From assembly GCA_027459665.1 (NCBI GenBank), contig DAIDHN010000001.1:72356-136355 (forward strand): 64,000 nucleotides of DNA. Direction: 5' to 3'. A program made the position numbers and the translations under genes. This document shows positions 522 through 14,407 of the stretch, in pieces. Every line of letters starts with the position of its first letter. The first letter of the stretch is position 1. Under the pieces are notes generated by a model that searched no databases, was not told where the DNA came from, and saw only the letters and a program-made list of their open reading frames with translations. Origin of the DNA: Chthonomonadaceae bacterium (GTDB lineage Bacteria > Armatimonadota > Chthonomonadetes > Chthonomonadales > Chthonomonadaceae).

Positions 522-1230
522 GTTTCTCCACTGAAACCTGGGCATACATCTCTGTTCGCACCTGCAGAGCCGCCGTCTGGCAGGAAAGATATTAAGGAAT
601 ATCTGCCACCCGATATTTTTCAGGACACTGCAGCACTTATCCATTAGAAAAGTGTACTGTCTCCTCTTTTTGCAGCGACAACCACTTAAGATGCGGCTTA
701 TCAAGCTCTACCAGGGAATGGTATAAATTGAATCTATCAACGTACAATGCAACACGCAACACTCAAGCTTACTGACAATTATTCATAAAAAGCCCACGGG
801 CCTGAGCCTGTGGGGCCGTACAGAGTACCGTAAGGGAGTAATACTATGCTATGGCATAAAATTTCTACAAAACAAACTTTTTTACAACATTTTTGCAAGA
901 GATCAGCGGTGATGTATGCTTTTTCGTAAGAATTCATAGTTGATGCAACATACTGCAAAGTGAAAGCCTGCCCTCTGTCTGCAGGTGAGACTGAGAGGGG
1001 CTATCTGCCACTGCATAGCAGCCCCTGTGCCTGAATGTGATCAAGACCGAACTCTTACACCGCGTGCTACTCCCCTGTTATGCTAAAAAGGAGAGCTATT
1101 TCATAAGCGAAATGCACTTTATTGCACACATTACTGCATTTTTATCTCTACTCTGCGAGAATATATTCCGATTTATAACTGTTGCACCAATGTAATGCAT
1201 AACCACGGCACAAAAGGAATGCCTGCTACC

Positions 1231-4200: not shown

Positions 4201-4356
4201 GGAGCCGCTGTTTCAGCCCCCCATGCTACTGATTCTCATGGAAAAACCATGCTGTTTGTGTTTCCACAAAAAGGAGCATCGGTTATTCGAATTACTCTGC
4301 GCAGCAGCAGCCTGCCGGGGGTGGTACGCATGATTAGCATTCAGCTGCAGAAATGA
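1231..4356 (+). CDS. Large secreted surface protein (about 1040 aa) with Big_1/invasin-like Ig repeats, Gly-rich linker and C-terminal transthyretin/CarboxypepD_reg-like domain
   Basis: Long ORF; start taken at ATG 1231 (AAAGGA 16 nt upstream) giving signal peptide MKQKLRYNALYLGNMLIFAVVPMVACAQSA; internal TDKGQFSNGSKQSVLQVDSEGRASETLSLQ resembles bacterial Ig-like domain 1; no catalytic motifs recognised. Confidence 0.6.
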   Translation: MKQKLRYNALYLGNMLIFAVVPMVACAQSAVSQIPHVIRIVPAHGKTLFPGTTLKGSTLQGSLTGEAARITVPAADFTSIPRRPPIPFVPFAMIDPSTGRAVLPGSNIRLANGKIVNAGSYYAALNQYEKILNASGYTLRKQGSYRTAYRVNYPLLAQQARMLDQQALRHPWIIPIQPALLARQITMARTLLLHPPVPHIVPPARHMHPAGIVKGVTVLPAVVLGSINSASPDQTPGMAVMQQVSPVVYAALHASAVTQGPSKGGKVQVLDAPLPGFYYPYNLDMGDPGTIGAYLHSYLDANGDKNSVTLEASADAGGYLLGNKIDVAGLQFHLDSSLGKKAKGTASFSLLGNTVKTYELALNNPQVNLDLIPPDDQNIQQDFFNATIMAGPVPVTIDVYGGIGLDAPLQVLTDIAQVNTAFTPAVSLNAGASVEIGVPGVLDAGVKCTVNVLTLSCPLNGAAALLPGSAGNGGTNAQDLGIYVNLTGDLDYTLLSGKFDVFADVTPLAHFETTIFHWPGYKNHISLFSVNHWYDLNTSVPPVLIDASAPGSIPSLNAPPQPAAVALNAIYLSTNAWTGKSNVENFITEGETVPSSRVYLTALVYDQFGNQMNASVPLTFTVNNQTIYPGSSGITIEPPQGGGEEQAAVSVNGTKIVRRLHFSFAASGAAFAPFQLVPDHGACFRTNTVTLTGPGNPLTSPIYFGSSQASILTPASVIASEAVNTAHNIEVQAPASAQPGFVPIGNMVTINGPETSTAMQPFSSLPQNYYYYVPNVPCLLLSQPGGLPNDYPLAETYPGYDTSFVTIPVALWDAAGTPETGESIVFQTDKGQFSNGSKQSVLQVDSEGRASETLSLQKNSAQTLGQVQGQAYTDIIPAHVTIRKQGGALVHLNVYFQYEPSAVSASSAGGAGNGAPSGLGTPAGGHGNGLPGHPAGGYQHGVRASAYLLRLPAAQTEKRQKAPFVLEVPVMLTHKNGQPAAGALVQALAAGAAVSAPHATDSHGKTMLFVFPQKGASVIRITLRSSSLPGVVRMISIQLQK

Positions 4357-6131
4357 AAATACAGCAAGGCATGGCTCTACTGTTTTTTTCTCTTTTCACG
4401 CAGCTTTCCTGGTCTCAGACTGCCCGGAATGGAGAAAAATTTCGGCAAGAGAATAAGGCGGTTGAGCAATGCTATTCTATGCAGTTCAGGCAGCGGGCAA
4501 AAACCAGCCTGGGGAATATAGATAGAAAGCTGGCTGGCAAAGACACCACAGTGCTGTTTTCTGTGAAGGGTGAATTCTGCACACTCCCTCTGGGACACAA
4601 CACGAAATGGGAACTGACAGGTGCCCGTTTTCTTATGCCAAAGGTACTGTTTTCGGTATCTGGGGTAGAAAACAAGCCTCTTGAAGAAGCGATTGCCCAT
4701 GATCTGCAAAAGCCCTTTTTACTGTACAGGACATCAAACAGGCAAATACATTCTTTTTATACCGCAGCTATTTCTCCGCTGAGCTGCCAGATGCTGCGCA
4801 CTATTCTGGGCCAAATGGAGTTTCTGCTGCCTGTTTCCCCGGCAGAAAAAGGGGAAGAGTGGAAAACAGAAGAAGAAAACGCAGAAGGAAAATACCAGGC
4901 GTGTTATGTTGTACAGAGCGGCTCTGCCAGACGGATTGCTGCAGAAAAGCGCATACTCTCCTACAGCTCTTTACGAAAGCATGTGCCACTTGCAGGAGTG
5001 AAAGTGCTTCTCCCCCGCCTGCTTCCATCGGGAACTGCTGAAGCTGTTTTTCAGAAGAGAGGCAGGGCGCTTCTTTCTTTGCAGAGCCTGCAATGCGTAA
5101 AAAGCACAATTGAGGGCGTACCGGGCGCTGTGGAATGGGATTCGCTGCAGATGAGACGCATCAGAACAGCGCCGGGTGCCTCTGCGCAGGGGTCTGTGCT
5201 GCCTGCACGTTTTCTACTTCTGCAAAAATCTTCTGCTCACCTGCTGTTTCGCGCTCCAGACTATACCCGGCAGCAGAAGGCGCTTGCCAAAACTGAGCTG
5301 GGAAGAGAAACTTTTTCCAGCCTGATGGAGAGAATGGCAGAAAAAGAAGCTGAAGGAGCCAGCGGCGCTCCTTCTCTGGTTATCCCTTTTCGGGCGCTGC
5401 TTCTGCTGCACCCTGCAGACATTGCACCATTACAACAGATTCTTGCCCAGGCAGACCCACACAGCCTTACTGCCCGCACCATAGCCAATGTGCTGCAGGC
5501 AACAGGCACGCGGCGGGCACAGGCCGCACTGTGCGATGTTCTTGTTGAGCGCCGGCAAGATACCCCTCTGTCTGCCATGCTGCTGCAATGGGCCGGCATG
5601 CTGGCTGCTCCCGATAAAGCCTCGCTGAATACTGTAAGGTGGTTTGCCCGAAATGCTCTGCATAGGGAAGTGCGGCAGCAGGCGCTTCTGGCCTACGGCG
5701 CTATGCTCAACGCCTATGCCTATCGGCGTCCTCATACGGCGGCTCTGCTTGTTTCGGCCTTATCGAATGAGTTTCCAAACGAATCGCCCACGGTTTTTCT
5801 GGAGGCTCTGGGGAATGCAGGAACTGCCGGAATTGTGCCTATTGCTGCCCCCTTTCTGCACAGCCCTCATGTGAATCTGCGGGTAGAGGCACTCTGCAGC
5901 CTTCGAAAAGTACTGTCTCAAAGGGTAAGAAGCATGCTGGCAGACAGGCTGCTTCACGACCCCAGTGCAGAGGTGCGCGCACAATGCGTACAGGTAATTG
6001 TTCTGCAAAAGGCAGTGCCGCTTCTGCAAACCAGCCTGCGAAAGGCGCTGAAAACTGAAAAGTCGCCCATGGTACGGCAGGAGATTCGTGCGGCGCTCAA
6101 GCAGACTTCCTTGTCTTCTCGAAACAGGTGA
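4353..6131 (+). CDS. Secreted HEAT/PBS-lyase-type repeat protein, translationally coupled to the upstream giant protein
   Basis: ATGA start/stop overlap at 4353-4356; N-terminal signal peptide MKIQQGMALLFFSLFTQLSWSQTA; C-terminal tandem helical repeats with ...EVRxxAxxAL... periodicity (HEAT-like). Confidence 0.55.
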   Translation: MKIQQGMALLFFSLFTQLSWSQTARNGEKFRQENKAVEQCYSMQFRQRAKTSLGNIDRKLAGKDTTVLFSVKGEFCTLPLGHNTKWELTGARFLMPKVLFSVSGVENKPLEEAIAHDLQKPFLLYRTSNRQIHSFYTAAISPLSCQMLRTILGQMEFLLPVSPAEKGEEWKTEEENAEGKYQACYVVQSGSARRIAAEKRILSYSSLRKHVPLAGVKVLLPRLLPSGTAEAVFQKRGRALLSLQSLQCVKSTIEGVPGAVEWDSLQMRRIRTAPGASAQGSVLPARFLLLQKSSAHLLFRAPDYTRQQKALAKTELGRETFSSLMERMAEKEAEGASGAPSLVIPFRALLLLHPADIAPLQQILAQADPHSLTARTIANVLQATGTRRAQAALCDVLVERRQDTPLSAMLLQWAGMLAAPDKASLNTVRWFARNALHREVRQQALLAYGAMLNAYAYRRPHTAALLVSALSNEFPNESPTVFLEALGNAGTAGIVPIAAPFLHSPHVNLRVEALCSLRKVLSQRVRSMLADRLLHDPSAEVRAQCVQVIVLQKAVPLLQTSLRKALKTEKSPMVRQEIRAALKQTSLSSRNR

Positions 6132-6207: not shown

Positions 6208-7002
6208 TCAGCGAAGCCGGGCAGGGGCTGCTTCAATAGCCAAAGGGTGTTCCATTGCAAGCAGAATTCCGTGAAGTACATACCAGGGATGTGGCGGATG
6301 GCCAGGAACATAAATGGCAGTTGGCAGAATGGCATTCACCCCCTTTGCCTCTGCGTAGCTCCCCCTGTGCAGTCCGCCGGAAATGGCCGAAGCGCCTGCT
6401 GCAATTACCAGTCGCGGATCGGCCATCGCTTCGTAGCAGCGGCGCAGCGGTTCATGCATTGCACGTGCAACAGGGCCGGTGACTATCAGGGCATCGGCAA
6501 AGCGGGGAGACGCAACAAAATGGATGCCGAATCGGCTGGCATCAAAAACCGGGTTGTTTGAGGCTGCTATCTCCAGATCAGAGGCGCTGTCGCCTGTAGA
6601 AACCTCGCGCAGGTGAATCGAACGCCGAAACGGAGAGGTATGAGGTAACTGTGCAGGGCGTTGTGTAACTGCCTTGTTCGTCAAAATGAGTTCCTCCCGG
6701 CGCCGTACGGCAACTCTTGTACTCCTGTCTTCCACAATGGTTCCGGCAGGGCAGACGGCAGGGCAGCCATTGCATGCAATGCACCTCCCCAGGTCAATAG
6801 ATACCTGCCCGCCGGCGGGGCCGGGAGAAACCTGTATGGCTTCGGCAGGGCAGGCTTGCACGCAGGCGCTGCAGCCCTGATTAGCCGCGCAGGCTGTGTC
6901 TGTCAAGCCTGGCAGACCGCGGCTGTAGGCTGGCAGTGCGGGGAACATGGCGCGCTGTGTCGCATTCCCAGCAGATAGAAGCTGTATGAGTGTTTGTAAC
7001 AT
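6208..7002 (-). CDS. Ferredoxin (2x[4Fe-4S] motif) fused to a NuoB/[NiFe]-hydrogenase small-subunit-like domain that lacks all four cluster-binding cysteines (EhrS-like)
   Basis: N-terminal CxxCxxCxxxCP (CIACNGCPAVCP) and a variant Cx5CxxCxxxCP; C-terminal NuoB homology (SPRFADALIVTGPV, AAGASAISGG, YVPGHPPHP) where canonical CCxxE, GACA and GCPP read SA, SA and GHPP. Confidence 0.8.
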   Translation of the reverse strand: MLQTLIQLLSAGNATQRAMFPALPAYSRGLPGLTDTACAANQGCSACVQACPAEAIQVSPGPAGGQVSIDLGRCIACNGCPAVCPAGTIVEDRSTRVAVRRREELILTNKAVTQRPAQLPHTSPFRRSIHLREVSTGDSASDLEIAASNNPVFDASRFGIHFVASPRFADALIVTGPVARAMHEPLRRCYEAMADPRLVIAAGASAISGGLHRGSYAEAKGVNAILPTAIYVPGHPPHPWYVLHGILLAMEHPLAIEAAPARLR

Positions 7003-7020
7003 CCTTGCATCCTCTCTTCC

Positions 7021-8559
7021 TCAGAGGTCATTGCCGCTGTAGGAGAGACTGAAACTCTTGTTGCAAAGCGGAAAATCTGCCACCAGCTGGCCGCGCGCTG
7101 CAATGGCCAGCCCTGTCCAGTTATTAAAACTGGGGTCTTTTACGGCATAACGTGAAATGCTGCCATTCTCATCTGTAAAAACAAGGTGAATCAGTTCTCC
7201 CCGCCAGGCTTCAATTATTCCTGCACCAATGCTCCGGGGGGGCAGCTTGTCTGGAACAGGAACCCGAACGGTCTCCTCATTTGATACCCGCTTCAGAAAT
7301 GCATCGGCCAGCTGCAGGCTGGCTCGCGTCTCTTGCACCCGAATGCGTACACGCGCCAATACATCGCCTTCCTCCTCCACCGCAGCTTCCCAGGGCAGCC
7401 AAGCATACGGTTCCTGAAGGAATGCGTTGCGCACATCATAATCAACACCGCTGGCGCGCCCAGCTGGCCCAACCATACCGAAGTCGCGGGCAAGCGAGGG
7501 ACGCACCTTTCCCACCCCTTCCATGCGCTCCAATGCACCAGGGTTTTCCATCAGAATTGGCACAATACGCTCGAATTCCTTTGCAATACTTCTTACCGAG
7601 GCAGCCATCTGGTCTCTTGCCTGCAGAGAAATTGCATGCGCAACGCCGCCGGGCAAAATGTATGCTGTTTGCAAACGTGCGCCTGTCAACTGCTCTCCCA
7701 GCCCCAGCGCCCGTCCACGCAGGCATCCAAAAAGTGCAGCTCCCGCTGTAAAACCTATGTCGCTGCATATGCCTCCCAGGTCTCCAATATGCGATGCAGT
7801 GCGCTCTATCTCCAGCGAGAGAGCACGCAGGTTCTGAGCCGCTGCAGGGGGTGTAATTGCAAGTAACTGCTCCACAGCCATCGCATGCGCCCAGGCATTT
7901 GCTGCACTTGAATCACTGCTGATCGCTTCTGCCAGAAACCTTGCATGCTGCCAGGGGACTTCCGTCAGCTGCTGCTCTATCCCCCGGTGCTGGTATCCCA
8001 GCCGTATTTCAAGGTTCTGAATGACTTCTCCCAGGCAGCTGAAGCGAAAGTGCCCCGGTTCAATGATTCCCGCATGAATCGGCCCAACAGCAATCTCGTA
8101 CACTCCCTCTCCCTGCACAGTCAGGAATTTGCTGCTGCGGCGTGCAGGCGCATTCTCAGGTACAACCGGGTGGGCATCTCGCAGTGGATAAAATCCTTCT
8201 GGCCAGGCTTCATGCAGAATCACGCTTTTGAAACGCGGATGCCCCTCTGGCAGAATGCCGAAGAAATCAGAAACCGCCCGCTCAAACCAGTGCGCCTGCG
8301 GCACATGAGGGGTGAGCGAAGGGAATGCGGACTTTGCAGAATGCAGGGGAGTTTCCCACACATGCATGCCTGCATTCGCAGGATGCAAAACCAGCGTAAC
8401 AAGCGCCAAATCGTCTCCTGGCGGTATCCTCCTGGCTGTCAGCAAACCCAGCCGGCTTCCCTGCCTGAGCAGCATTGTCAGGCGTTCTTGCAGGCTGTCG
8501 AGCGGAACCAGCACTGGCTCAATGCCGGCGGGCTGCGGCAAAATCTCACCAGAATTCAT
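7021..8559 (-). CDS. NuoC-NuoD fusion / group-4 [NiFe]-hydrogenase large-subunit homologue without NiFe-binding CxxC motifs (EhrL-like)
   Basis: GPIHAGIIEPGHFRFSCLGEVIQNLEIRLGYQHRGIEQ matches the NuoD/HycE N-terminal signature; position of the RxCGxCxxxH motif reads AISSDSSAAN; C-terminal DPCxSC motif absent (DFPLCNKSF); ATGA overlap with upstream gene. Confidence 0.8.
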   Translation of the reverse strand: MNSGEILPQPAGIEPVLVPLDSLQERLTMLLRQGSRLGLLTARRIPPGDDLALVTLVLHPANAGMHVWETPLHSAKSAFPSLTPHVPQAHWFERAVSDFFGILPEGHPRFKSVILHEAWPEGFYPLRDAHPVVPENAPARRSSKFLTVQGEGVYEIAVGPIHAGIIEPGHFRFSCLGEVIQNLEIRLGYQHRGIEQQLTEVPWQHARFLAEAISSDSSAANAWAHAMAVEQLLAITPPAAAQNLRALSLEIERTASHIGDLGGICSDIGFTAGAALFGCLRGRALGLGEQLTGARLQTAYILPGGVAHAISLQARDQMAASVRSIAKEFERIVPILMENPGALERMEGVGKVRPSLARDFGMVGPAGRASGVDYDVRNAFLQEPYAWLPWEAAVEEEGDVLARVRIRVQETRASLQLADAFLKRVSNEETVRVPVPDKLPPRSIGAGIIEAWRGELIHLVFTDENGSISRYAVKDPSFNNWTGLAIAARGQLVADFPLCNKSFSLSYSGNDL

Positions 8560-10016
8560 CGCGCCACCCCCTCTGCTAGCGTGAAGGCCGCAGAAGTAAG
8601 CACCACTCCAAGCAGTAGCGAAGCAGTAAGCAGAATGCCCGGAATAACCATTGTTGAGAATACTGGAACAGCCTCAGACACCGCAGTTTTCTTTTTTGCC
8701 GGTGACTCTCCAAACACCATGCCTGCGATTCGCATGGATAGCGCAATAAATGCTATTGCCAATGCAGCGCATAATACAATTACTGTTATGATATGGCGCG
8801 TGTCTGCCGCTGTTGAAAGAATTTGCCACTCGGCAAGAAAGCTTCCAAAAGGAGGGGAACCGGCAACTGCAGCGGCCGCGACGAATAACAACACTGCTTG
8901 TAGCGGCTGCGCGTTCAATACCCCCCGAATATCCTGTATGGTCTTGGTGCCGTACTGCTGCAGCAGATTACCTGCCAAAAGAAAAAGCGCCGCTTTGACC
9001 AGGCTGTGATTGACTGCCTGAAGTGCAAACCCTGCGCTGGTACCAAGCGCTGCGGCCACCGCTATCAGGCCAACGTTTTCCATGCTGGAGTAGGCAAGCA
9101 TTCGTTTGAGATCGCGCTGCTTGAGCAAAAAAAGACTGGCTGCCAGAACCGTTGCCGCACCCATTGGCAAAAGCGTGATCTGAACAAACCTGCTTTCTCC
9201 TGCAGCAGCCATCAGGCTGCAGGTACGCCAGAGCGCTACAAGCGCACAGTTTAGCAGCGCACCCGATAGCATGGCGCTGGCAGGCGCCGGCGCTTCGCTG
9301 TGGGCATCTGGCAGCCAGCTGTGAAGCGGAAAGAGGCCAGCCTTTGTTCCATAACCAAGCAGGGTAAAAACAAACCCCAGGCGCAGCATGCTGTGTGAAT
9401 AGAGGCGTGCATGTTTTACCAGATATGCAAGTGAAAGGCTTCCTGTTGTTCCTGCGCCAACACGCTGTGATGCTGCGTAGAAAATTGCTGTGCCCAGAAA
9501 GGCGAACGCTATACCCACACTGCATATGATGAGGTATTTCCAGGTTGCTTCAAGAGATGTGCGAGAACGATGATGATAAACCAGCGGAGCCGACAGCAGA
9601 GTGGTTGCTTCCACCGAAATCCAGAGATAGCCCAGATTGTCTGCTGCCACAACAGCCACCATCGAAAGATAGAAAAGGGCGGCAAACAGGTAAAACATAC
9701 GCAGATCACGGTTTGAGGGCGCATGCTCAGATGCGGTTTCCCGCAGAAAAAACCCCACGGCATGGGTGAGAGCTGCTGCAACAATCAGGGTGGTAAGCAT
9801 TGCAAAGAGCGCCGCAGTGTTGTCAAGACGAAAGCCGTGTACAACAGGCGCCGTCTGGTGCGTGCCCAGGCGGGGCACACACACTGCCAAAACGACTGCC
9901 ATCTGCACCCACATCAAAACAGCGCTCAGGCGCAGCAGAGTAGAAGTTCTGCGAGACAGCAGCGCAGAAACCAGAATAAGCATGGGGCAGAGCAGCAAAG
10001 AGAGCAAAGCATTCAT
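8556..10016 (-). CDS. NuoN/NuoM/HyfF-like proton-translocating antiporter-type membrane subunit
   Basis: Polytopic membrane protein with signature WLPDAHSEAPAPASAMLSGALLNCALVALWR of the Mrp/NuoL-M-N family. Confidence 0.8.
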   Translation of the reverse strand: MNALLSLLLCPMLILVSALLSRRTSTLLRLSAVLMWVQMAVVLAVCVPRLGTHQTAPVVHGFRLDNTAALFAMLTTLIVAAALTHAVGFFLRETASEHAPSNRDLRMFYLFAALFYLSMVAVVAADNLGYLWISVEATTLLSAPLVYHHRSRTSLEATWKYLIICSVGIAFAFLGTAIFYAASQRVGAGTTGSLSLAYLVKHARLYSHSMLRLGFVFTLLGYGTKAGLFPLHSWLPDAHSEAPAPASAMLSGALLNCALVALWRTCSLMAAAGESRFVQITLLPMGAATVLAASLFLLKQRDLKRMLAYSSMENVGLIAVAAALGTSAGFALQAVNHSLVKAALFLLAGNLLQQYGTKTIQDIRGVLNAQPLQAVLLFVAAAAVAGSPPFGSFLAEWQILSTAADTRHIITVIVLCAALAIAFIALSMRIAGMVFGESPAKKKTAVSEAVPVFSTMVIPGILLTASLLLGVVLTSAAFTLAEGVAR

Positions 10017-10206
10017 TGAGTGTTTTGAGGCATGCCTCCTTCCTGTACAAATCAGGGTAGAAGGGCTGCATTCCTTTCTTTATTCGAAAAATACCCCGTT
10101 TCACCAGCCGCATTGCCTGGCACATACATGCCGAACATCCGTTTCGGCTGTGCATTTCCCCTCTTCTCAGCCAGCGAACCGGCGCCATGTTCTGTGCAGG
10201 GCATAT

Positions 10207-10836
10207 TCATCCTCTCAGCTGCTTCAATTCTGTTACATCGATGTGCTCAAAGCTGTCTCTAATGCGAAAGGTAAGCAGCCCGGCAAGCATGGTGCCGGCC
10301 AGAATATCCATCAGTACTCCCAGTTCTACAACAGGCGGCATTGAGTGAGGCTGTGCTATTGTGTAGAAGAATATGCCATTCTCCAGCACCAGAAACCCGA
10401 TTATCTGACTCACTGCGAGCCGGCGTGATACCATGAGCACCATTCCAATGAAGAGCATTCCTATGGTGGGAAGTGCGCTGGGCGCAATCTGCCGGCTGAA
10501 TGGATGCAGCAGCATGAGCGCCCCCAGAGCGCCTGCAGTTGCAAACAGAAGCAGGGGCGGTGCAAGCAGCAATCCTTCATCCCTGCGGCAGCCGAGACGT
10601 CGTACTACCCTGTTGAGGTAGACAGGAACGGCAACGCCCTTTAACAGCGCAACTGCTGTTCCTGCTGCAACCAGAGCAGGCTCTCCGTGCTGCTTTCCAA
10701 CCCAAATGGCCAGCAGGCCCAGTGTTACAGTTTGCAGGGCATAGAGCATCAGCTTGGAAGGCAGCTGGGTGAGTCCTGTCATCCACAATCCCAGCAGAAC
10801 GGTGCATGCAGCAACTGGACCAAACTCAAATGACAT
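10207..10836 (-). CDS. HyfE/hydrogenase-4 component E-like small membrane subunit
   Basis: 209-aa protein with about 6 TM helices, size and hydropathy like HyfE; embedded between NuoH-like and NuoN-like genes as in hyf operons. Confidence 0.6.
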   Translation of the reverse strand: MSFEFGPVAACTVLLGLWMTGLTQLPSKLMLYALQTVTLGLLAIWVGKQHGEPALVAAGTAVALLKGVAVPVYLNRVVRRLGCRRDEGLLLAPPLLLFATAGALGALMLLHPFSRQIAPSALPTIGMLFIGMVLMVSRRLAVSQIIGFLVLENGIFFYTIAQPHSMPPVVELGVLMDILAGTMLAGLLTFRIRDSFEHIDVTELKQLRG

Positions 10837-10842
10837 AATGAC

Positions 10843-11760
10843 CTATCCTTTCAACACCACTATCAGGTTTGCGATTATGCCCGCCGTGAGTGCAAACGAC
10901 AACAAACTGGGAATTTTTCGCCAGCGCAGTTTGACCAGTATCGATTCCATCAATGCCAGCGCCACACCTGCTGCCAGAATCAATCCCAGGCTCAGCAAGT
11001 AAGCCGTCACAGGTGAAAACGGGGGCAGCGCCATAAGCAGTACCCTGGCTATCAGCCCAAACAAAACAGTCATCTCAATGGCGGCGGCAAACTCTCTCAA
11101 TGCAAGATTTCTCCCAGAGTTTTCCAGAATGAGAGCCTCGTGTATCATTGTCAGTTCCAGGTGGGTAGTGGGATCGTCTACCGGCATCCTCGCCAGCTCT
11201 GCCGTAACCGCCAGCCAGAGCGCCGCAACTACCAAAAGAAGCACAAACAAATTCGCGCTGCCTGGCCCTGTCGCGAGAAACAGAGATACGCTGCTGCTGT
11301 GCGCATGAGCGGCAAGTGCAGCAAGTGCAATCACAACAGCCGGCTCGGCTGCAATTGAAACAGCGGCCTTGCGGCTTGCACCCAGCGCACCGAAAGATGA
11401 CCCTGCATCCAGCGCAGCCAGCTGGGTTACAAACTTTTCTACCGCCATTAAATAAATAATCAGAAAGAGATCGCCGGGCAGTGGAGCAGAAACACCGAGC
11501 CAGGGAATCATCAAGGCAGTACAAAGCATCACCGCTATGCTGATGATGGGGGCAAGACGAAACACACCGGTGGTTGTCTCACTGATGATTTCCCCCTTGC
11601 TAAATAGTTTCGCTATGTCCCAGAAGGGCTGCAGAAGCGGCGGTCCCTGCCGATTCAGAAACCGCGACTTGCTGAATTGTATCACCCCGGCAAGAAGCAG
11701 CGGCAGCGTGAGTGCATGAATAAGATAGAAGGCAAGCAATAAAATCGATGCGAACCTCAC
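10843..11760 (-). CDS. NuoH/HycD/HyfC-like membrane subunit
   Basis: FLNRQGPPLLQPFWDIAKLFSKGE (NuoH Q-x-R-x-GP...D..KL..KE motif) and C-terminal DDPTTHLELTMIHEALILENSG...LAL motif typical of HycD. Confidence 0.8.
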   Translation of the reverse strand: MRFASILLLAFYLIHALTLPLLLAGVIQFSKSRFLNRQGPPLLQPFWDIAKLFSKGEIISETTTGVFRLAPIISIAVMLCTALMIPWLGVSAPLPGDLFLIIYLMAVEKFVTQLAALDAGSSFGALGASRKAAVSIAAEPAVVIALAALAAHAHSSSVSLFLATGPGSANLFVLLLVVAALWLAVTAELARMPVDDPTTHLELTMIHEALILENSGRNLALREFAAAIEMTVLFGLIARVLLMALPPFSPVTAYLLSLGLILAAGVALALMESILVKLRWRKIPSLLSFALTAGIIANLIVVLKG

Positions 11761-13745
11761 CGGGTAAATCCTCCAATGGCAAGCAGCAGCAGCAGCGTAC
11801 CAAACATGGTGAGCAGATAGAGGTGAATGCTCCCCGCCTGCATTTGCACGATCCAGTCTCCGGCACGGTCTACCCAGCGCACAAGCGGGTGATAAATACG
11901 TGTTTCAAGCACCGCCCCCGTCTTTGTTTCCACAGTGATCTCTTCTGGAAAAAGACGCCTGTTTACTCCATCAATATGAAGGTGAATAGCATAGCGGTAA
12001 AATGCACTGAACATTCGCGCAATCGGCTGTGCAAAACTGCCTGAGGCAACCTGCATTCGGGGCGTCAGGTCTCCAAAGCCGCATTCCCATGTAATAAACT
12101 TTCTCACCGGCTGGCGGCGGGCAGCGCTCTCCATCCACATTGCAATTCCCCCTGTGGTAAAAACCAGAAGAAGCGCCAGCATTGGCATCGGCAGTGTCCA
12201 GACAGATGCGAGAGGGACTGCATTCGGTGCAAGCGGAGTGACGAGCCGCTGCAGAATACTCAGTGCCAGCGGCACGGCAAGCCCCAGGCCGGCACAACCT
12301 GCTGCGAGCAGACCCTGCGCCAGCAGCATTCCCCTGCTCGCTTCTTTGGCCTCTTCTGCGGCTCTGGTACGCGGACGTCCCTGAAAAGCTACTCCGAGTG
12401 CGCGGGTATAGCACGCCAGAGAGAGTACGCCAACCAGGGCAGTTTGGCCGATCATAAGTACACCGCAGCAGCGCAGCAGGGGGGTTGTCCCTTGGGCAGC
12501 AATATGCAGTGACCCCTGGTAGAGCAGCCACTCTGCGGCAAAACCATTGAGAGGCGGCAGGCCGCATATGGCAGCAGCGCCCAGAATAAAAAGGCCGAAG
12601 GTATAGGGCATGCGCTTCCCCAGCCCTCCCAGTTTCGTTAGATCACGCGTGTGGGTACGCAGGTCTACCGAGCCTGCCCCGAGGAACAGCAGCGATTTGA
12701 AAAGCGCATGGTTGAGAATTTGAAAGAGTGCGGCGGCAGCACCCAGCTGAACAGCCCCCGCAACCCCCAGAAATCTTGCCGATATTGCCCCGCCTATGCC
12801 GATGAGAATAAGGCCGACGTTCTCAACTGTCGAGTAGGCAAGAATCCGCTTGATGTCTTCCTGAATCAGCGCAAAGAGAATTCCCCAGACAGCAGAGACC
12901 GAACCGAGGATAAGCAAAATGTAGCCGAACGCCGGATGTGCAAATGCCCTGGAAAACAGAAACAGACGCACGATTGCATAGAGAGCCGTCTTGACCATAA
13001 CACCGCTCATCAGGGCAGACACAGGAGATGGCGCAGCAGGGTGGGCAGCGGGCAGCCAGAGGTGAAAGGGCCACATTCCGGCTTTCACGCCCAAACCGGT
13101 CAGAAGAAGAAGCCCCGGCCCAAGAGCGCGAACCCCTGCAAGATGCCAGTTTTGAAATACCCAGCTGCCCGTGAGTGCATGCGCCCAGAGGAATCCACCT
13201 GCCAAAAAGGCAGTACCAACACGAGTAGCGCCCAAATAGACAAGCGCTGCCTGCCGGGTAGAGGCATTGCGATGGTCTGTTGCTACCAGCAGAAACGAAC
13301 TCAGCGACATAACCTCCCAGGCAATCAGAAAAGTGAGCGCGTTTGCAGCGAGGACTACCAGCGCCATGCTGAGCAGCAGCAGCGGAAGCGCTGTCCAGAA
13401 GACACGCATGTCGGTGCGCGTTTTCATATGCTCCATATAGTCATGAAGGTAGAACGCTGCCGGCCCGCTGGAAAGAGCAATGACAGCCAGAAACCAGGCA
13501 GCCAGCATGTCAAGGTGAAAGGCGATGGGAGCAGTGCCCAAAAAGAAGGGGAGAGGAAGCGTTAGAGATTCTGGCCGAGCATATAAAACAGTAACAGCAG
13601 CGCCCAGCAGGGTAAGCGCCCCCAAACCGATGAGAGCGCTCCATGCACGCCGATGAGTATGCTGCCCATCAAACAAGGCGGCCAGCGGCAGTACAAGCCA
13701 AAACAGAGCAGCGGCACCGAGAAACAGGTGAGAAAGTGGAGGCAT
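11757..13745 (-). CDS. NuoL/HyfB/HycC-like large antiporter-type membrane subunit
   Basis: 662-aa polytopic protein with LWLPAAHPAAPSPVSALMSGVMVKTALYAIVRL signature of the NuoL family; 4-nt overlap with downstream gene. Confidence 0.8.
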   Translation of the reverse strand: MPPLSHLFLGAAALFWLVLPLAALFDGQHTHRRAWSALIGLGALTLLGAAVTVLYARPESLTLPLPFFLGTAPIAFHLDMLAAWFLAVIALSSGPAAFYLHDYMEHMKTRTDMRVFWTALPLLLLSMALVVLAANALTFLIAWEVMSLSSFLLVATDHRNASTRQAALVYLGATRVGTAFLAGGFLWAHALTGSWVFQNWHLAGVRALGPGLLLLTGLGVKAGMWPFHLWLPAAHPAAPSPVSALMSGVMVKTALYAIVRLFLFSRAFAHPAFGYILLILGSVSAVWGILFALIQEDIKRILAYSTVENVGLILIGIGGAISARFLGVAGAVQLGAAAALFQILNHALFKSLLFLGAGSVDLRTHTRDLTKLGGLGKRMPYTFGLFILGAAAICGLPPLNGFAAEWLLYQGSLHIAAQGTTPLLRCCGVLMIGQTALVGVLSLACYTRALGVAFQGRPRTRAAEEAKEASRGMLLAQGLLAAGCAGLGLAVPLALSILQRLVTPLAPNAVPLASVWTLPMPMLALLLVFTTGGIAMWMESAARRQPVRKFITWECGFGDLTPRMQVASGSFAQPIARMFSAFYRYAIHLHIDGVNRRLFPEEITVETKTGAVLETRIYHPLVRWVDRAGDWIVQMQAGSIHLYLLTMFGTLLLLLAIGGFTR

Positions 13746-13747
13746 TC

Positions 13748-14215
13748 CTACTGCTCCTCTTCTGGGGAGACATCAGAGGGGGATGCCTGCAGGCGAATCT
13801 CTGTCAGCATTTCTGTTACCTCACTGAGATGTTCCTCAAAGTAGAGTCGCATTATGTCAAGCACTTCAGTGAGCCGATGACTGCGCAGCGAATAGAAAAC
13901 CTGATTTCCTTCCTTACGATTAACAACAATCTGCCTGGCGCGCAACACGGCCAAATGCTGCGATGCATTTGCCTGCTCTACCCCCAGCCTTTCCAGAATA
14001 GCGCCTGCCGACACCTCATCTTCACGAAGTATTTCTACAATAGCGATTCGCGTGGGATGCGCCAATGCCTGAAAAATGTCCGCCTTAAATCGCTGCAATG
14101 CATTCTGCATAACCGCCTGCCTCTCTTGCCCATAGGGCATGCTTTGCTGTAGCTGCTGACAACTGAATAGCGCTCCCAATTGCCCTTGGGCAGCCCTTAT
14201 GCCGATGCATGGCAT
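13748..14215 (-). CDS. ArsR/SmtB-family HTH transcriptional regulator, first gene of the Ehr-like operon (alternative start at 14140)
   Basis: FQALAHPTRIAIVEILREDEVSAGAILERLGVEQANASQHLAVLRARQIVV = ArsR winged-helix signature; no metal-sensing Cys motifs; stop lies 2 nt before the NuoL-like start. Confidence 0.75.
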   Translation of the reverse strand: MPCIGIRAAQGQLGALFSCQQLQQSMPYGQERQAVMQNALQRFKADIFQALAHPTRIAIVEILREDEVSAGAILERLGVEQANASQHLAVLRARQIVVNRKEGNQVFYSLRSHRLTEVLDIMRLYFEEHLSEVTEMLTEIRLQASPSDVSPEEEQ

Positions 14216-14221
14216 GTATTA

Positions 14222-14258
14222 TGTATTAGTATACCATAATTTTCAAATATTCTAAAAA
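14222..14258 (-). promoter_or_regulatory. Putative sigma70-type promoter of the arsR-ehr operon (-35 TTTAGA, 17-nt spacer, -10 TATACT) overlapping an AATATTC-N8-GAATATa inverted repeat
   Basis: Read on minus strand: TTTAGAatatttgaaaattatggTATACT about 9 nt before the ATG at 14215; inverted repeat at 14246-14267. Confidence 0.4.
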
Positions 14259-14407
14259 TCGAATATACTTATAATCTGTAGAAACTGCGTTGTCTACAGG
14301 TTCAATAAAAAGCGCGCCCGCAGCAGCAAACTCTCCCCATGTTTTGCGTCGCTGCAGGTACAATATTCTTCATAACCTATTCGTCAAAATTGACTAGAGG
14401 AACTGCC

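What the first reader, a model, noticed from the sequence alone, without database searches (positions are those of the whole stretch)
7021..8559. Large-subunit homologue with SxxS in place of the NiFe-binding CxxC and no C-terminal DPCxxC
The protein keeps the NuoC-like N-domain and the NuoD/HycE core (GPIHAGIIEPGHFRFS...LGYQHRGIEQ). The stretch aligned to RxCGxCxxxH reads AISSDSSAAN, and the C-terminus ends DFPLCNKSFSLSYSGNDL with a single Cys. A NiFe site is impossible. Together with the Cys-less small subunit, this excludes hydrogenase and canonical complex I chemistry.
Basis: seen in the sequence. Interest (0 to 1): 0.7.

Follow-up and report, generated by a model that had tools for sequence, protein, structure and literature searches.

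The report
Hydrogenase-like Ehr complex stripped of metal sites
This gene encodes the large subunit of an "Ehr" membrane complex, a known but functionally unsolved relative of hydrogenases and respiratory complex I; this lineage's version has lost both the nickel-iron site and the neighbouring iron-sulfur cluster, yet it is still strongly conserved.

Summary
The ORF lies on the minus strand, 7021-8559 (512 aa). It is a NuoC+NuoD/HycE fusion, and its best solved relative is E. coli HycE. All four NiFe cysteines are replaced: CGIC becomes SSDS and DPCYSC becomes SLSYSG. The quinone-ligating Tyr and His of NuoD are also absent.

The gene is not an orphan oddity. It is EhrL of a six-gene ehrABCDLS cassette (6208-13745). 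[quoted passage not shown]

What goes beyond the known description is the state of the small subunit. In this Armatimonadota-type clade it has lost the ligands of the proximal, N2-type [4Fe-4S] cluster. 93 of the 120 closest homologues have no Cys at those positions, whereas about 90% of the Ehr loci sampled across other phyla keep all four. The fused 2x[4Fe-4S] ferredoxin domain keeps all eight Cys. The pocket, the coupling loops and the antiporter charges all remain conserved.

So the electron wire to the pocket appears to be cut in a complex that is still under selection. I infer an ion-translocating machine with a non-redox polar pocket; what drives it is unknown.

A conserved ArsR-type repressor and a 20-bp palindromic operator control the operon.

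The parts
7021..8559 (-). ehrL: large subunit, a NuoC-like plus NuoD/HycE-like fusion (512 aa) without NiFe ligands
   Evidence: Pfam PF00329 + PF00346. HycE 7Z0S_E at E=5.6e-66. AF2 model pTM 0.82, Foldseek top hit HycE with TM 0.82. Reference alignment.
7909..7920 (-). S214-S215-D216-S217, replacing HycE C241-G-I-C244 (the L1 NiFe motif). D216 and T/S217 are conserved in nearly all Ehr large subunits sampled.
   Evidence: Conservation.
7024..7050 (-). C-terminal SLSYSGNDL, replacing HycE DPCYSCTDR (the L2 NiFe motif). The protein ends here, with no protease-cleaved extension.
   Evidence: DFPLCNKSF.LSYSGNDL is nearly invariant in the 120 closest homologues.
6208..7002 (-). ehrS: a fusion of a HycF/NuoI-like 2x[4Fe-4S] ferredoxin domain (about residues 1-110) and a HycG/NuoB-like small-subunit domain (about residues 124-250) that lacks the proximal-cluster ligands
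   Evidence: Pfam Fer4_7 + Oxidored_q6. HycG at E=2.4e-25 and HycF at E=1.5e-10.
6751..6891 (-). Eight Cys of the ferredoxin domain (C-x5-C-x2-C-x3-CP and C-x2-C-x2-C-x3-CP)
   Evidence: Each Cys is present in 119-120 of 120 homologues.
6298..6600 (-). NuoB-like core with the former [4Fe-4S] ligand positions: STGD-SAS (first Cys deleted, second is S141), GAS205A, PGH235PP
   Evidence: These positions are variable in the clade (S/T/A, S/A, D/H/S/N). 93 of 120 homologues have no Cys there.
8556..10016 (-). ehrD: NuoN/HyfF-like antiporter-type subunit (486 aa)
   Evidence: Pfam Proton_antipo_M E=3e-49. Best NCBIfam similarity is to hydrogenase-4 subunit F. TM5 Glu, TM7 Lys and TM12 Lys are conserved.
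10207..10836 (-). ehrC: HyfE-like membrane subunit (209 aa)
   Evidence: NCBIfam hydrogenase-4 membrane subunit (HyfE) E=1.8e-18, below cut-off. Weak Oxidored_q2 match. Same position in the cassette in the sampled loci.
10843..11760 (-). ehrB: NuoH/HycD-like subunit (305 aa), with the conserved TM5-6 loop PVDDPTTHLELTMIHE
   Evidence: Pfam NADHdh E=2.6e-32. Conservation.
11757..13745 (-). ehrA: NuoL/HyfB/HycC-like antiporter-type subunit with a C-terminal extension carrying the ND3-loop-like TWECG motif (662 aa)
   Evidence: HycC 7Z0S_C at E=7.7e-59 and MbhH at 9e-55. NCBIfam hydrogenase-4 subunit B at 534 bits. Charged TM residues are conserved.
13748..14110 (-). ArsR/SmtB-family HTH regulator. 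The ORF extends to 14215, but clade homologues start at the ATG at 14110 (MQNALQRFKADIF...). It contains no Cys.
   Evidence: Pfam HTH_20/HTH_5. NCBIfam NF033788 at 86.4 bits against a cut-off of 55. The same gene lies directly upstream of ehrA in L081, L082 and L087. Sequences compared.
14247..14266 (.). 20-bp palindrome ATATTCTAAAAATCGAATAT (8-4-8, consensus ATATTCGA-N4-TCGAATAT): the probable operator of the ArsR-type regulator, abutting the -35 box
   Evidence: It is the single match in the window, with 0.00 expected by chance. The same palindrome lies upstream of the regulator in L081, L082 and L087, and is absent from clade loci without the regulator.
14218..14246 (-). Sigma-70-like promoter TTGAAA-17-CATAAT (10 of 12 matches) upstream of the regulator and ehr operon
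   Evidence: This is a consensus match only.

Best explanation
SHOWN. The ORF is EhrL, the large subunit of a six-subunit Ehr (energy-converting-hydrogenase-related) membrane complex. The complex is encoded by ehrA-B-C-D-L-S (13745 down to 6208, minus strand), behind an ArsR-type repressor gene and its palindromic operator. It cannot be a [NiFe]-hydrogenase, because none of the four ligand Cys is present. It cannot be a canonical quinone reductase either, because the Tyr/His quinone ligands and the N2-type cluster are both absent.

In this Armatimonadota-type clade the proximal [4Fe-4S] of the small subunit has also been lost. That cluster links the ferredoxin-type clusters to the pocket in FHL, MBH and complex I. 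The two ferredoxin-domain clusters remain, as do the pocket, the four coupling loops and the antiporter-subunit Lys/Glu residues, all strictly conserved.

INFERRED. The complex is still a working ion (H+ or Na+) translocating machine of the complex I/Mrp type. Its former active-site pocket is now an invariant polar cluster (E167, H170, S214, D216, T/S217, N221, N500, K501, S506, Y507, D511). I propose that it acts as a protonatable or ligand-binding gate to the NuoH-like E-channel, not as a metal redox site.

Without the proximal cluster, electrons entering the ferredoxin domain cannot reach the pocket at useful rates. That domain is therefore most likely a structural or redox-sensing cap, or it serves a reaction outside the pocket. 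The driving reaction remains unidentified.
For: IDENTITY
- Domains and solved relatives.
- Reference alignment with HycE, HyfG and NuoCD.
- The same six-gene order occurs in essentially every locus with complete flanks among the 80 genome loci sampled, from many bacterial and archaeal phyla. At least 597 loci carry the CNKSF.LSY and IEPGHFRF signatures.
- The literature defines Ehr as a group-4-like complex lacking the NiFe CxxC motifs, with unknown function (PMC6349859; PMC10284858; PMC10432482; PMC7894505; PMC13194489).

LOSS OF THE PROXIMAL CLUSTER
- HMMER alignments to HycG, MbhJ and NuoB.
- The former ligand positions are variable in the clade.
- Of the 120 closest EhrS, 93 have zero Cys at the ligand positions, 16 have one, 1 has two and 10 have three.
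- About 90% of the scored Ehr small subunits in the 80 sampled loci keep all four Cys.

STILL UNDER SELECTION
- EhrL has long invariant stretches across homologues of 50-76% identity.
- All eight ferredoxin Cys are kept in 119-120 of 120 homologues.
- The membrane subunits keep TM5 Glu and the TM7, TM8 and TM12 Lys, plus the NuoH-type loop.
- The four coupling loops defined for FHL (PMC9474812) are all conserved.
- The regulator and its operator are conserved.

THE POCKET DOES NOT DEPEND ON THE CLUSTER
- Obscuribacterales loci L002 and L004 keep the 4-Cys cluster, yet share the same SDT..N / LSYSGNDL pocket motif with the cluster-less clade.

THE WIRE
- In FHL the relay runs F1, F2 (HycF), then G1 (HycG), then NiFe, with every step under 14 A (PMC9474812). 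Removing G1 leaves a gap of two steps. This last point is my inference.
Against: - No activity, structure or phenotype exists for any Ehr complex. The mechanistic part of the statement is inference from conservation alone.
- The strict retention of eight ferredoxin Cys is easier to explain if electrons are still used for catalysis. A purely structural role is plausible (off-pathway clusters exist in complex I; this is from my own knowledge) but untested here.
- Ten clade members keep three of the four Cys. The cluster may therefore persist in part of the clade, and the loss may be recent and gradual.
- The AF2 model is unreliable exactly in the pocket segments (residues 139-191 and 486-512, pLDDT below 50). 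The claim that the conserved residues cluster in space rests on homology to HycE, not on a model.
- No coordinates were available to measure distances.
- Which ion is translocated, and in which direction, is unknown.
Confidence: 0.55

Rival explanations
1. The complex is still a redox-driven pump, as mainstream Ehr is presumed to be. Reduced ferredoxin, or a docking dehydrogenase, feeds the two ferredoxin-domain clusters. Electrons then reach an unidentified acceptor bound in or near the pocket. They travel either by slow long-range transfer or amino-acid hopping, or the acceptor binds close to the distal cluster. This reaction drives ion translocation.
For: All eight Cys of the ferredoxin domain are invariant. 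Most Ehr complexes keep a complete three-cluster wire, which argues that the ancestral function is redox. Ten clade members keep three Cys at the proximal site. In Geobacter, Ehr subunit abundance rises on formate (PMC7894505).
Against: The proximal-cluster positions are variable, not replaced by alternative ligands. The pocket has no Cys/His metal site and no quinone ligands. No dehydrogenase or other redox partner is conserved next to the cassette in seven clade loci. Removing G1 from the FHL relay leaves a gap of two steps, each under 14 A (inference).
Confidence: 0.25
2. The complex is a redox-independent Mrp-like cation/proton antiporter or ion-homeostasis device. The peripheral arm survives only as an assembly and stability cap, and the pocket has no ligand of its own.
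For: The antiporter-type subunits have intact Lys/Glu networks. Their best NCBIfam relatives include Mrp subunits A and D. No redox partner is present. The proximal cluster is lost.
Against: A mere cap would not need an invariant beta1-beta2 loop, the D216/T217 motif or the C-terminal motif. It also would not need eight invariant FeS Cys. True Mrp antiporters work without any NuoH/NuoD/NuoB module (my own knowledge of the Mrp family).
Confidence: 0.12
3. The cassette is a decaying relic: a former hydrogenase operon losing its cofactors one by one and no longer doing anything useful. One Geobacter study asserted this about Ehr.
For: Cofactors have been lost stepwise: NiFe first, then the proximal cluster, with 3-Cys intermediates. 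PMC13194489 treats Geobacter Ehr as non-functional.
Against: All six ORFs are intact. Large invariant blocks persist across more than 100 sequence clusters at 50-76% identity. Gene order is conserved across phyla, and the regulator and operator are conserved. All Ehr subunits are detected as proteins in Geobacter (PMC7894505).
Confidence: 0.04
4. It is a cryptic hydrogenase or quinone reductase that uses non-canonical ligands (Ser, Asp, Thr or the single Cys499) for a metal site.
For: The fold is HycE-like. The proton-relay Glu of the EPGH loop is retained.
Against: All four NiFe Cys, the L1 Arg and the L1 His are replaced. There is no proximal cluster, no C-terminal maturation extension, and no hyp genes within 64 kb. 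The NuoD Tyr/His are absent.
Confidence: 0.02

Closest known systems
Ehr complexes (Ech-/energy-converting-hydrogenase-related; Geobacter sulfurreducens EhrA-S GSU0739-45; M. tuberculosis Rv0082-Rv0087; described by Coppi 2005 and Marreiros et al. 2013, as cited in PMC7894505, PMC4758237 and PMC6728331)
   Same: It has the same six subunit types (NuoL-like, NuoH-like, HyfE-like, NuoN-like, large, small). The large subunit lacks both NiFe CxxC motifs. It shares the family signatures GD[TS] and DFPL.NKSF.LSY.G.DL. An ArsR-type regulator is adjacent, as Rv0081 is in M. tuberculosis (PMC6728331; that Rv0081 belongs to the ArsR family is from my own knowledge).
   Different: In this clade the small subunit has lost the proximal [4Fe-4S] ligands, which about 90% of sampled Ehr loci retain. 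The pocket variant is SSDT..N / LSYSGNDL, where most sampled Ehr have GDT..H together with LSYCG or LSY[SA]G. The operator palindrome is clade-specific.
E. coli formate hydrogenlyase hydrogenases Hyc (Hyd-3, PDB 7Z0S) and Hyf (Hyd-4)
   Same: These are the best solved relatives for the large subunit (HycE), small subunit (HycG), ferredoxin domain (HycF) and NuoL-like subunit (HycC). The membrane subunits most resemble HyfB, HyfE and HyfF. The coupling loops are the same.
   Different: There is no NiFe site, no G1 cluster, no HycB/FdhF electron-input module, no HycI/HycH/Hyp genes nearby and no C-terminal extension. The HycF-like and HycG-like proteins are fused.
Group 4f-like [NiFe]-hydrogenases (loci L057 Desulfotomaculum MAG and L058 Gemmatimonadales MAG)
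   Same: These are the closest Cys-bearing relatives. They share the six-gene order and the DFPL[IV]NKSFEL... C-terminal context, and they branch at the base of the Ehr clade. The literature also places Ehr next to group 4f (PMC10284858).
   Different: They keep ERICGVCS.H and ELCY[SA]C, and a 4-Cys small subunit.
Respiratory complex I Q-module (NuoCD/NuoB/NuoI/NuoH)
   Same: The fold matches (Foldseek TM 0.71-0.77 to E. coli NuoCD). The module architecture and the antiporter-type subunits are shared.
   Different: The quinone Tyr and His are absent (S215 and I166), there is no N2 cluster, and there is no N-module.
Pyrococcus furiosus MBS/MBX (PDB 6U8Y), the NiFe-less group-4 derivative
   Same: It is also a hydrogenase descendant without NiFe. 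It was matched by sequence (MbsL E=4.5e-28; MbsJ E=1.2e-11).
   Different: From my own knowledge of the published MBS structure, MBS keeps its three [4Fe-4S] clusters and uses the proximal one for catalysis. Here that cluster is missing. Similarity to MBS is much lower than to HycE.

Membership tests
Ehr (energy-converting hydrogenase-related) complex | Large subunit homologous to the group 4 [NiFe]-hydrogenase large subunit / NuoD | tested here: met
   Pfam PF00346 E=5e-39. HycE at E=5.6e-66. Foldseek TM 0.82.
Ehr (energy-converting hydrogenase-related) complex | Both NiFe-binding CxxC motifs (L1, L2) absent | tested here: met
   SSDS replaces CGIC and SLSYSG replaces DPCYSC. The same holds in 120 of 120 closest homologues.
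Ehr (energy-converting hydrogenase-related) complex | Gene cluster with NuoL-like, NuoH-like, HyfE-like and NuoN-like membrane subunits plus a NuoB-like small subunit (ehrA-D, L, S) | tested here: met
   The order is the same in essentially every complete locus among the 80 sampled. Subunit names follow PMC7894505.
Ehr (energy-converting hydrogenase-related) complex | Groups phylogenetically with other Ehr large subunits, next to group 4f hydrogenases | tested here: met
   In a neighbour-joining tree of 83 sequences rooted on HycE, the window falls inside the Cys-less clade, and the NiFe-bearing L057 and L058 are basal. This is a distance tree without bootstrap support, so it is approximate.
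Ehr (energy-converting hydrogenase-related) complex | Small subunit with four Cys for the proximal [4Fe-4S]. This is typical of the family in my sample; I found no source that states it as a defining feature. | tested here: not met
   First Cys deleted, then S141, S205 and H235. About 90% of scored loci have four Cys.
Group 4 [NiFe]-hydrogenase (Hyc/Hyf/Ech/Mbh) | L1 motif RxCGxCxxxH and L2 motif DPCxxCxxH/R in the large subunit | tested here: not met
   the Arg, both Cys and the His of L1 are replaced, and both Cys of L2 are replaced.
Group 4 [NiFe]-hydrogenase (Hyc/Hyf/Ech/Mbh) | Proximal [4Fe-4S] in the small subunit | tested here: not met
Group 4 [NiFe]-hydrogenase (Hyc/Hyf/Ech/Mbh) | Hyp maturation genes and an endopeptidase in the genome | tested here: inconclusive
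   None was found among the 37 window ORFs scanned, 9 of the 46 predicted ORFs were not scanned. The rest of the genome is not available, and the contig look-up failed.
Complex I / NDH-1 Q-module | Quinone head-group ligands Tyr (E. coli NuoCD Y273) and beta1-beta2-loop His | tested here: not met
   They align with S215 and with invariant I166.
Complex I / NDH-1 Q-module | Cluster N2 bound by four Cys of NuoB, including the tandem CC | tested here: not met
   The NuoB CC aligns with A140-S141.
MBS/MBX-type NiFe-less respiratory complex | Retained proximal [4Fe-4S] as the catalytic or terminal cluster | tested here: not met
   The requirement itself comes from my own knowledge of the MBS structure and was not checked in a paper here.
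ArsR/SmtB transcription regulators (gene 13748-14110) | Winged-HTH of the family scoring above the curated threshold | tested here: met
   NCBIfam NF033788 at 86.4 bits against a cut-off of 55. Pfam HTH_20/HTH_5.
ArsR/SmtB transcription regulators (gene 13748-14110) | Thiolate (alpha3 CxC) metal- or metalloid-sensing site | tested here: not met
   The 120-aa protein has no Cys, and neither do its homologues in L081 and L082.

The most novel reading that the evidence does not exclude
The Armatimonadota-type Ehr would be the first complex-I-superfamily machine in which the entire coupling apparatus is kept under strong selection while no redox cofactor remains within electron-transfer range of the pocket. 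The coupling apparatus here means the pocket, the four loops, the E-channel and the antiporter subunits. On this reading the complex-I coupling mechanism is being driven by, or is driving, something other than electron transfer to the pocket. Candidates are binding or protonation of a small polar ligand or ion at the Ser/Asp/Thr/Asn/Lys/Tyr site, with the two remaining ferredoxin clusters acting as a redox sensor or switch. Comparing it with cluster-containing sister Ehr (Obscuribacterales) would then give a natural experiment on what Ehr complexes do.
Probability: 0.22. Interest if true: 0.8.

Novelty: new variant of a known kind. Interest (0 to 1): 0.45.

Why it matters
Ehr complexes occur in a very wide range of bacteria and archaea, including Mycobacterium tuberculosis, Geobacter, comammox Nitrospira, ammonia-oxidising archaea and cable bacteria. 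They are regularly cited as a "missing link" between hydrogenases and complex I. Despite that, nobody knows what they do, and no structure of one is in the PDB.

The headline trait of this finding, the absence of NiFe cysteines, is therefore not new. The useful point is the comparison. A large and well-conserved sub-clade has also dropped the iron-sulfur cluster that feeds the pocket, while its nearest relatives keep that cluster with an identical pocket. This constrains hypotheses about Ehr function: whatever the pocket does in this lineage does not need electrons delivered by the canonical wire.

It also points to concrete experiments:
- Fe content and EPR (8 versus 12 Fe per complex).
- Vesicle ion-transport assays with and without reduced ferredoxin.
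- Pocket mutants.
- Ligand screens for the regulator.

If the complex proves to be an ordinary redox pump using a rerouted wire, or a degenerate antiporter, the finding is of specialist interest only.

Tried and rejected
- **Alternative frames or strand carrying CxxC motifs.** Five overlapping ORFs have no Pfam match. Rejected.
- **A replacement metal site in EhrL.** I considered an Asp/His/Cys/His site suggested by the mainstream GDT..H / LSYCGHDL motif. Position 510 varies (H/F/Y/N) and position 508 varies (C/S/A) across Ehr, so there is no consistent ligand set. Not supported.
- **Replacement ligands for the small-subunit cluster.** The former ligand positions are variable in the clade. Clade-specific invariant residues include only one Cys, C189. 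There is no new cluster site.
- **Pocket changes correlated with loss of the proximal cluster.** None found. Obscuribacterales (4 Cys) share the clade's pocket motif.
- **A conserved redox partner next to the cassette.** None in seven clade loci or in the scanned part of the window. The [FeFe]-hydrogenase-like gene in L081 is a single case.
- **Contig and organism look-up for the window protein.** Not on record. The taxon is inferred only from named homologues (Chthonomonadaceae at 72% identity, and Capsulimonadaceae).
- **Marreiros et al. 2013.** The paper could not be read. A full-text search found no paper that mentions Ehr complexes together with NuoB or cluster N2. I therefore cannot exclude that the cluster-less small subunit has been noted before.
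- **Literature hits that led nowhere.** 'Ehr' matches in PMC13083937, PMC3578206, PMC13046784 and PMC8076601 were author or species names. The supplements of PMC6349859 held nothing on Ehr cysteines.
- **Rfam scan of the operon region,** including the 190-nt ehrC-ehrD gap: no match.
- **AF2 model.** The fold is confirmed, but the pocket segments have pLDDT below 50, so no structural inference about the pocket was drawn.
- **Second antiporter subunit against the PDB.** At a strict threshold nothing was returned. It was judged from family conservation instead.
Full report
**1. The observation**

The coordinates 7021-8559 delimit an ORF of 512 codons on the minus strand. The plus-strand translation is full of stops. 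Pfam finds a NuoC-type domain (PF00329, E=8e-14) followed by a NuoD/49-kDa domain (PF00346, E=5e-39). The NiFeSe_Hases model scores below its cut-off. The best solved relative is HycE of E. coli formate hydrogenlyase (7Z0S_E, E=5.6e-66). Next come T. thermophilus Nqo4, P. furiosus MbhL and MbsL. An AlphaFold model (pTM 0.82) superposes best on HycE (TM 0.82), then on NuoCD.

I fetched E. coli hyc, hyf and nuo from NC_000913 and aligned HycE, HyfG and NuoCD with the window protein and eight relatives.
- HycE R-V-C241-G-I-C244-G-F-A-H corresponds to A-I-S214-S215-D216-S217-S-A-A-N221.
- HycE D-P-C-Y-S-C-T-D-R, which is followed by a 32-residue extension, corresponds to S-L-S-Y-S-G-N-D-L-stop.

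All four NiFe cysteines are gone, along with the L1 Arg, the L1 His and the protease-cleaved tail. Coordinates of the two motifs were verified. Five overlapping ORFs in other frames have no family match.

**2.

In the same alignment the quinone-ligating Tyr of NuoCD (IEY273) aligns with S215. The His of the beta1-beta2 loop (PSAH) aligns with I166, which is invariant in the family. There is no canonical quinone pocket. The loop is of the hydrogenase type (GPIHAGIIEPGHFRF, against HycE GPLHVTSDEPGHFRL), and it keeps the Glu and His.

**3. The surroundings**

The gene is the fifth of six co-directional, mostly overlapping genes:

| Gene | Coordinates | Description |
|---|---|---|
| ehrA | 11757-13745 | NuoL/HyfB/HycC-like |
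| ehrB | 10843-11760 | NuoH/HycD-like |
| ehrC | 10207-10836 | HyfE-like |
| ehrD | 8556-10016 | NuoN/HyfF-like |
| ehrL | 7021-8559 | the finding |
| ehrS | 6208-7002 | small subunit |

An ArsR/SmtB-type regulator gene precedes them at 13748-14110 (NF033788, 86 bits against a cut-off of 55).

EhrS is a fusion. Residues 1-110 resemble HycF/NuoI and carry two 4Fe-4S motifs. Residues 124-250 resemble HycG/MbhJ/NuoB (E about 1e-25). In the NuoB-like part the four ligands of the proximal (N2-equivalent) cluster are missing. The first Cys of CxxC falls in a one-residue deletion, the second is S141, GAC is GAS205, and PGCPP is PGH235PP.

No NCBIfam model reaches its cut-off for EhrL or EhrS. The other 30 of the window's 46 predicted ORFs that I scanned encode unrelated functions, including G6PD, DprA, chemoreceptors, a photolyase and glycoside-hydrolase-like proteins. 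None is a hyp gene, a formate dehydrogenase or another partner, and nine predicted ORFs were not scanned.

**4. What family this is**

The literature already names it. Ehr complexes (Ech-hydrogenase-related, Coppi 2005; energy-converting hydrogenase-related, Marreiros et al. 2013) are group-4-like clusters whose large subunit lacks the NiFe CxxC motifs. They sit next to group 4f in trees, and their function is repeatedly stated to be unknown (PMC6349859; PMC10284858; PMC4758237; PMC10432482; PMC6728331; PMC7894505; PMC13194489; PMC7304191). The Geobacter subunit names (EhrA NuoL-like, EhrC HyfE-like, EhrL, EhrS) match this cassette.

The 80 loci kept come from many bacterial phyla and from archaea. 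Essentially every locus with complete flanks has the same order A-B-C-D-L-S, and in a few the S gene comes first.

Across these loci the large subunit shows family-wide signatures: E..[AS]GD[TS]...H/N, and DFPL.NKSF.LSY[CSA]G.DL. Asp216 is present in all but one Cys-less large subunit in the sample (the second cassette of L047 has Thr), at a position where hydrogenases have Ile or Val. Only two cassettes retrieved by the family signature, L057 and L058, carry ERICGVCS.H plus ELCY[SA]C. They have the same gene order and branch at the base of a neighbour-joining tree.

The finding's headline trait is therefore a known one, and the protein passes every membership test for Ehr that I could apply.

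**5. What is not standard**

In the 80 loci, about 90% of scored small subunits keep all four Cys of the proximal cluster (GGCNxCE, GACAISGG, PGCPP). The window and its relatives do not. Among the 120 closest EhrS sequences (52-74% identity, named sources Chthonomonadaceae and Capsulimonadaceae), the Cys counts at those positions are as follows:

| Cys at ligand positions | Number of sequences |
|---|---|
| 0 | 93 |
| 1 | 16 |
| 2 | 1 |
| 3 (TGCNATD + C + C) | 10 |

The positions are variable in the clade (S/T/A/C; S/A/C/D/P; D/H/S/N/C). The site has decayed and has not been re-tooled.

The nearest outgroup, Obscuribacterales (L002 and L004), keeps four Cys and falls inside the same clade in the tree. 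Independent losses occur in a Daviesbacteria/Thermoleophilia group (L009, L011, L021) and in one Planctomycetota locus (L019).

In contrast, each of the eight ferredoxin-domain Cys is present in 119-120 of 120 sequences. EhrL has long invariant blocks: EIPVGPIHAGIIEPGHFRFSCLGE, NLEIRLGYQHRG, EAWRGELIH, and DFPLCNKSF.LSYSGNDL.

The membrane subunits keep the following:
- the TM5 Glu and the TM7, TM8 and TM12 Lys of antiporter-type subunits;
- the NuoH-type loop PVDDPxTHLELTMxHE;
- the ND3-loop-like TWxCG motif of EhrA.

The four coupling loops defined in the FHL structure (PMC9474812) are thus all conserved.

The EhrL pocket motif is the same in Obscuribacterales, which have the cluster, and in the window's clade, which does not.

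**6. Interpretation**

In FHL the electron relay runs F1, F2 (HycF), then G1 (HycG), then NiFe, with every step under 14 A. Deleting G1 leaves a gap of two steps. There is no acceptor cofactor in the pocket in any case.

Shown: this complex is neither a hydrogenase nor a canonical quinone reductase, and it lacks the canonical electron wire to the pocket. It is nevertheless under strong purifying selection in all parts that mediate coupling in complex-I-type machines.

Inferred: it still translocates ions. Its pocket, now an invariant polar cluster of Glu, His, Ser, Asp, Thr, Asn, Lys and Tyr, works as a protonatable or ligand-binding gate and not as a redox site. The ferredoxin domain is structural or sensory, or it serves a reaction elsewhere.

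I give this about 0.55 overall. The identity part is above 0.9. The mechanistic part is roughly 0.3-0.4.

The main rival (0.25) is that electrons still drive the machine by a rerouted or slow path; the invariance of the eight Cys is its best argument. A pure Mrp-like antiporter with a vestigial cap (0.12) does not explain the invariant pocket. A decaying relic (0.04) is contradicted by the conservation. A cryptic hydrogenase or quinone reductase (0.02) is contradicted by every ligand test.

**7. Regulation (a side result)**

Four of seven clade loci (the window, L081, L082, L087) have the ArsR-type gene directly upstream of ehrA. The proteins are highly similar and contain no Cys.

All four loci carry an 8-4-8 palindrome, ATATTCGA-N4-TCGAATAT, upstream of the regulator:
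- window 14247-14266, with one mismatch, the only match in 64 kb, 0.00 expected by chance;
- L082, a perfect match;
- L081 and L087, one mismatch each.

The six clade loci I checked that lack this same-strand regulator gene do not have the palindrome. In the window it abuts the -35 box of a TTGAAA-17-CATAAT promoter-like site. This is very probably an autoregulated repressor-operator unit. The signal it senses is unknown. The parallel with Rv0081 (ArsR-type) upstream of the M. tuberculosis Ehr genes is suggestive (PMC6728331; the family assignment of Rv0081 is from my own knowledge).

**8. Novelty and limits**

The absence of NiFe ligands is already known for this family. The cluster-less small subunit combined with an intact ferredoxin domain is a distinct, well-populated variant. 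I found no description of it in the searchable literature. The founding paper could not be read, so prior mention cannot be excluded.

No Ehr structure is in the PDB: the best hit is HycE at 30% identity. The AF2 model is unreliable in the pocket segments, and no coordinates were available, so all spatial statements rest on homology. The tree is a distance tree without support values. The organism is inferred only from named homologues, because the contig look-up failed.

Noticed in passing
window 14247-14266 (also L081 4227-4246, L082 2951-2970, L087 2180-2199): A conserved 20-bp 8-4-8 palindrome, ATATTCGA-N4-TCGAATAT, lies upstream of the ArsR-type gene that heads the ehr operon. It is present in all four clade loci that have the regulator and absent from the six loci checked that lack it. 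It is probably the operator, and it abuts a promoter-like -35 box.
   Followed up: yes
window 13748-14215 (-): The regulator ORF as listed starts at 14215, but clade homologues begin at the ATG at 14110 (MQ.AL.RFKADIF). The 120-aa protein has no cysteine, so it is not a thiolate-type ArsR sensor. Its ligand is unknown.
   Followed up: partly
window 10843-11760 (-), EhrB residues K131 and E229: There is a reciprocal charge swap private to this genome. The family-wide GASRE Glu is Lys here, and the family-wide Lys around position 229 is Glu here. All other loci, including clade members L001, L003 and L081-L083, have Glu plus Lys/Arg. This suggests an intramembrane salt bridge in the NuoH-like subunit.
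   Followed up: partly
P0175, P0180, P0206, P0209, P0215, P0219, P0220, P0231-P0233 (EhrS homologues): Ten clade small subunits keep three of the four proximal-cluster Cys (TGCNATD + C205 + C235). These look like intermediates in a stepwise loss of the cluster, or possibly a 3-Cys cluster.
   Followed up: partly
L009, L011, L021; L019: Independent losses of the small-subunit cluster ligands occur elsewhere in Ehr. One is a Daviesbacteria/Thermoleophilia-type group (GSTNACE / GDDAIDGG / PGDPP, with no ferredoxin domain and the small-subunit gene first). The other is a single Planctomycetota locus (GAEAISGG / PGWPP).
   Followed up: partly
window 6208-7002 (-), EhrS residues 181-194: Residues that are invariant in the clade but differ from mainstream Ehr concentrate in one helix: A181, E184, P185, C189, M193, A194, against N, variable, A, T, V, P. 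C189 is present in 100% of the clade and is Thr elsewhere. Its role is unknown.
   Followed up: no
L081 897-4068: In a Capsulimonadaceae MAG, three genes lie divergently upstream of the ArsR-ehr unit: an [FeFe]-hydrogenase-like protein (Fe_hyd_lg_C, 582 aa), a small 2Fe-2S thioredoxin-like protein and a SpoIIE-type phosphatase. The arrangement resembles sensory hydrogenases. It was seen in only one locus.
   Followed up: no
L046 (Methanomassiliicoccus MAG) and L047 (Nitrospirota MAG): L047 carries two Ehr cassettes in tandem. L046 carries an Ehr cassette next to a true NiFe group-4 hydrogenase (ERVCGICS...DPCICC).
   Followed up: no
window 10017-10206: A 190-nt non-coding gap lies between ehrC and ehrD in an otherwise tightly packed operon. 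Similar gaps occur in L082 and L087. There is no Rfam match.
   Followed up: partly
window 4353-6131 (+) and 1195-4356 (+): Convergent with the ehr operon is a 592-aa protein with a Vitellogenin_N (lipoprotein N-terminal) match and HEAT repeats, which is unusual in bacteria. It is preceded by an overlapping 1053-aa protein with only a weak Big_1 match.
   Followed up: no
window 7021-8559 (-), EhrL residues 139-191 and 486-512: The most conserved segments of EhrL, the beta1-beta2 loop region and the C-terminal motif, are the least confident parts of the AlphaFold monomer model (pLDDT below 50). This would fit segments that fold only against the EhrS and EhrB partners.
   Followed up: no
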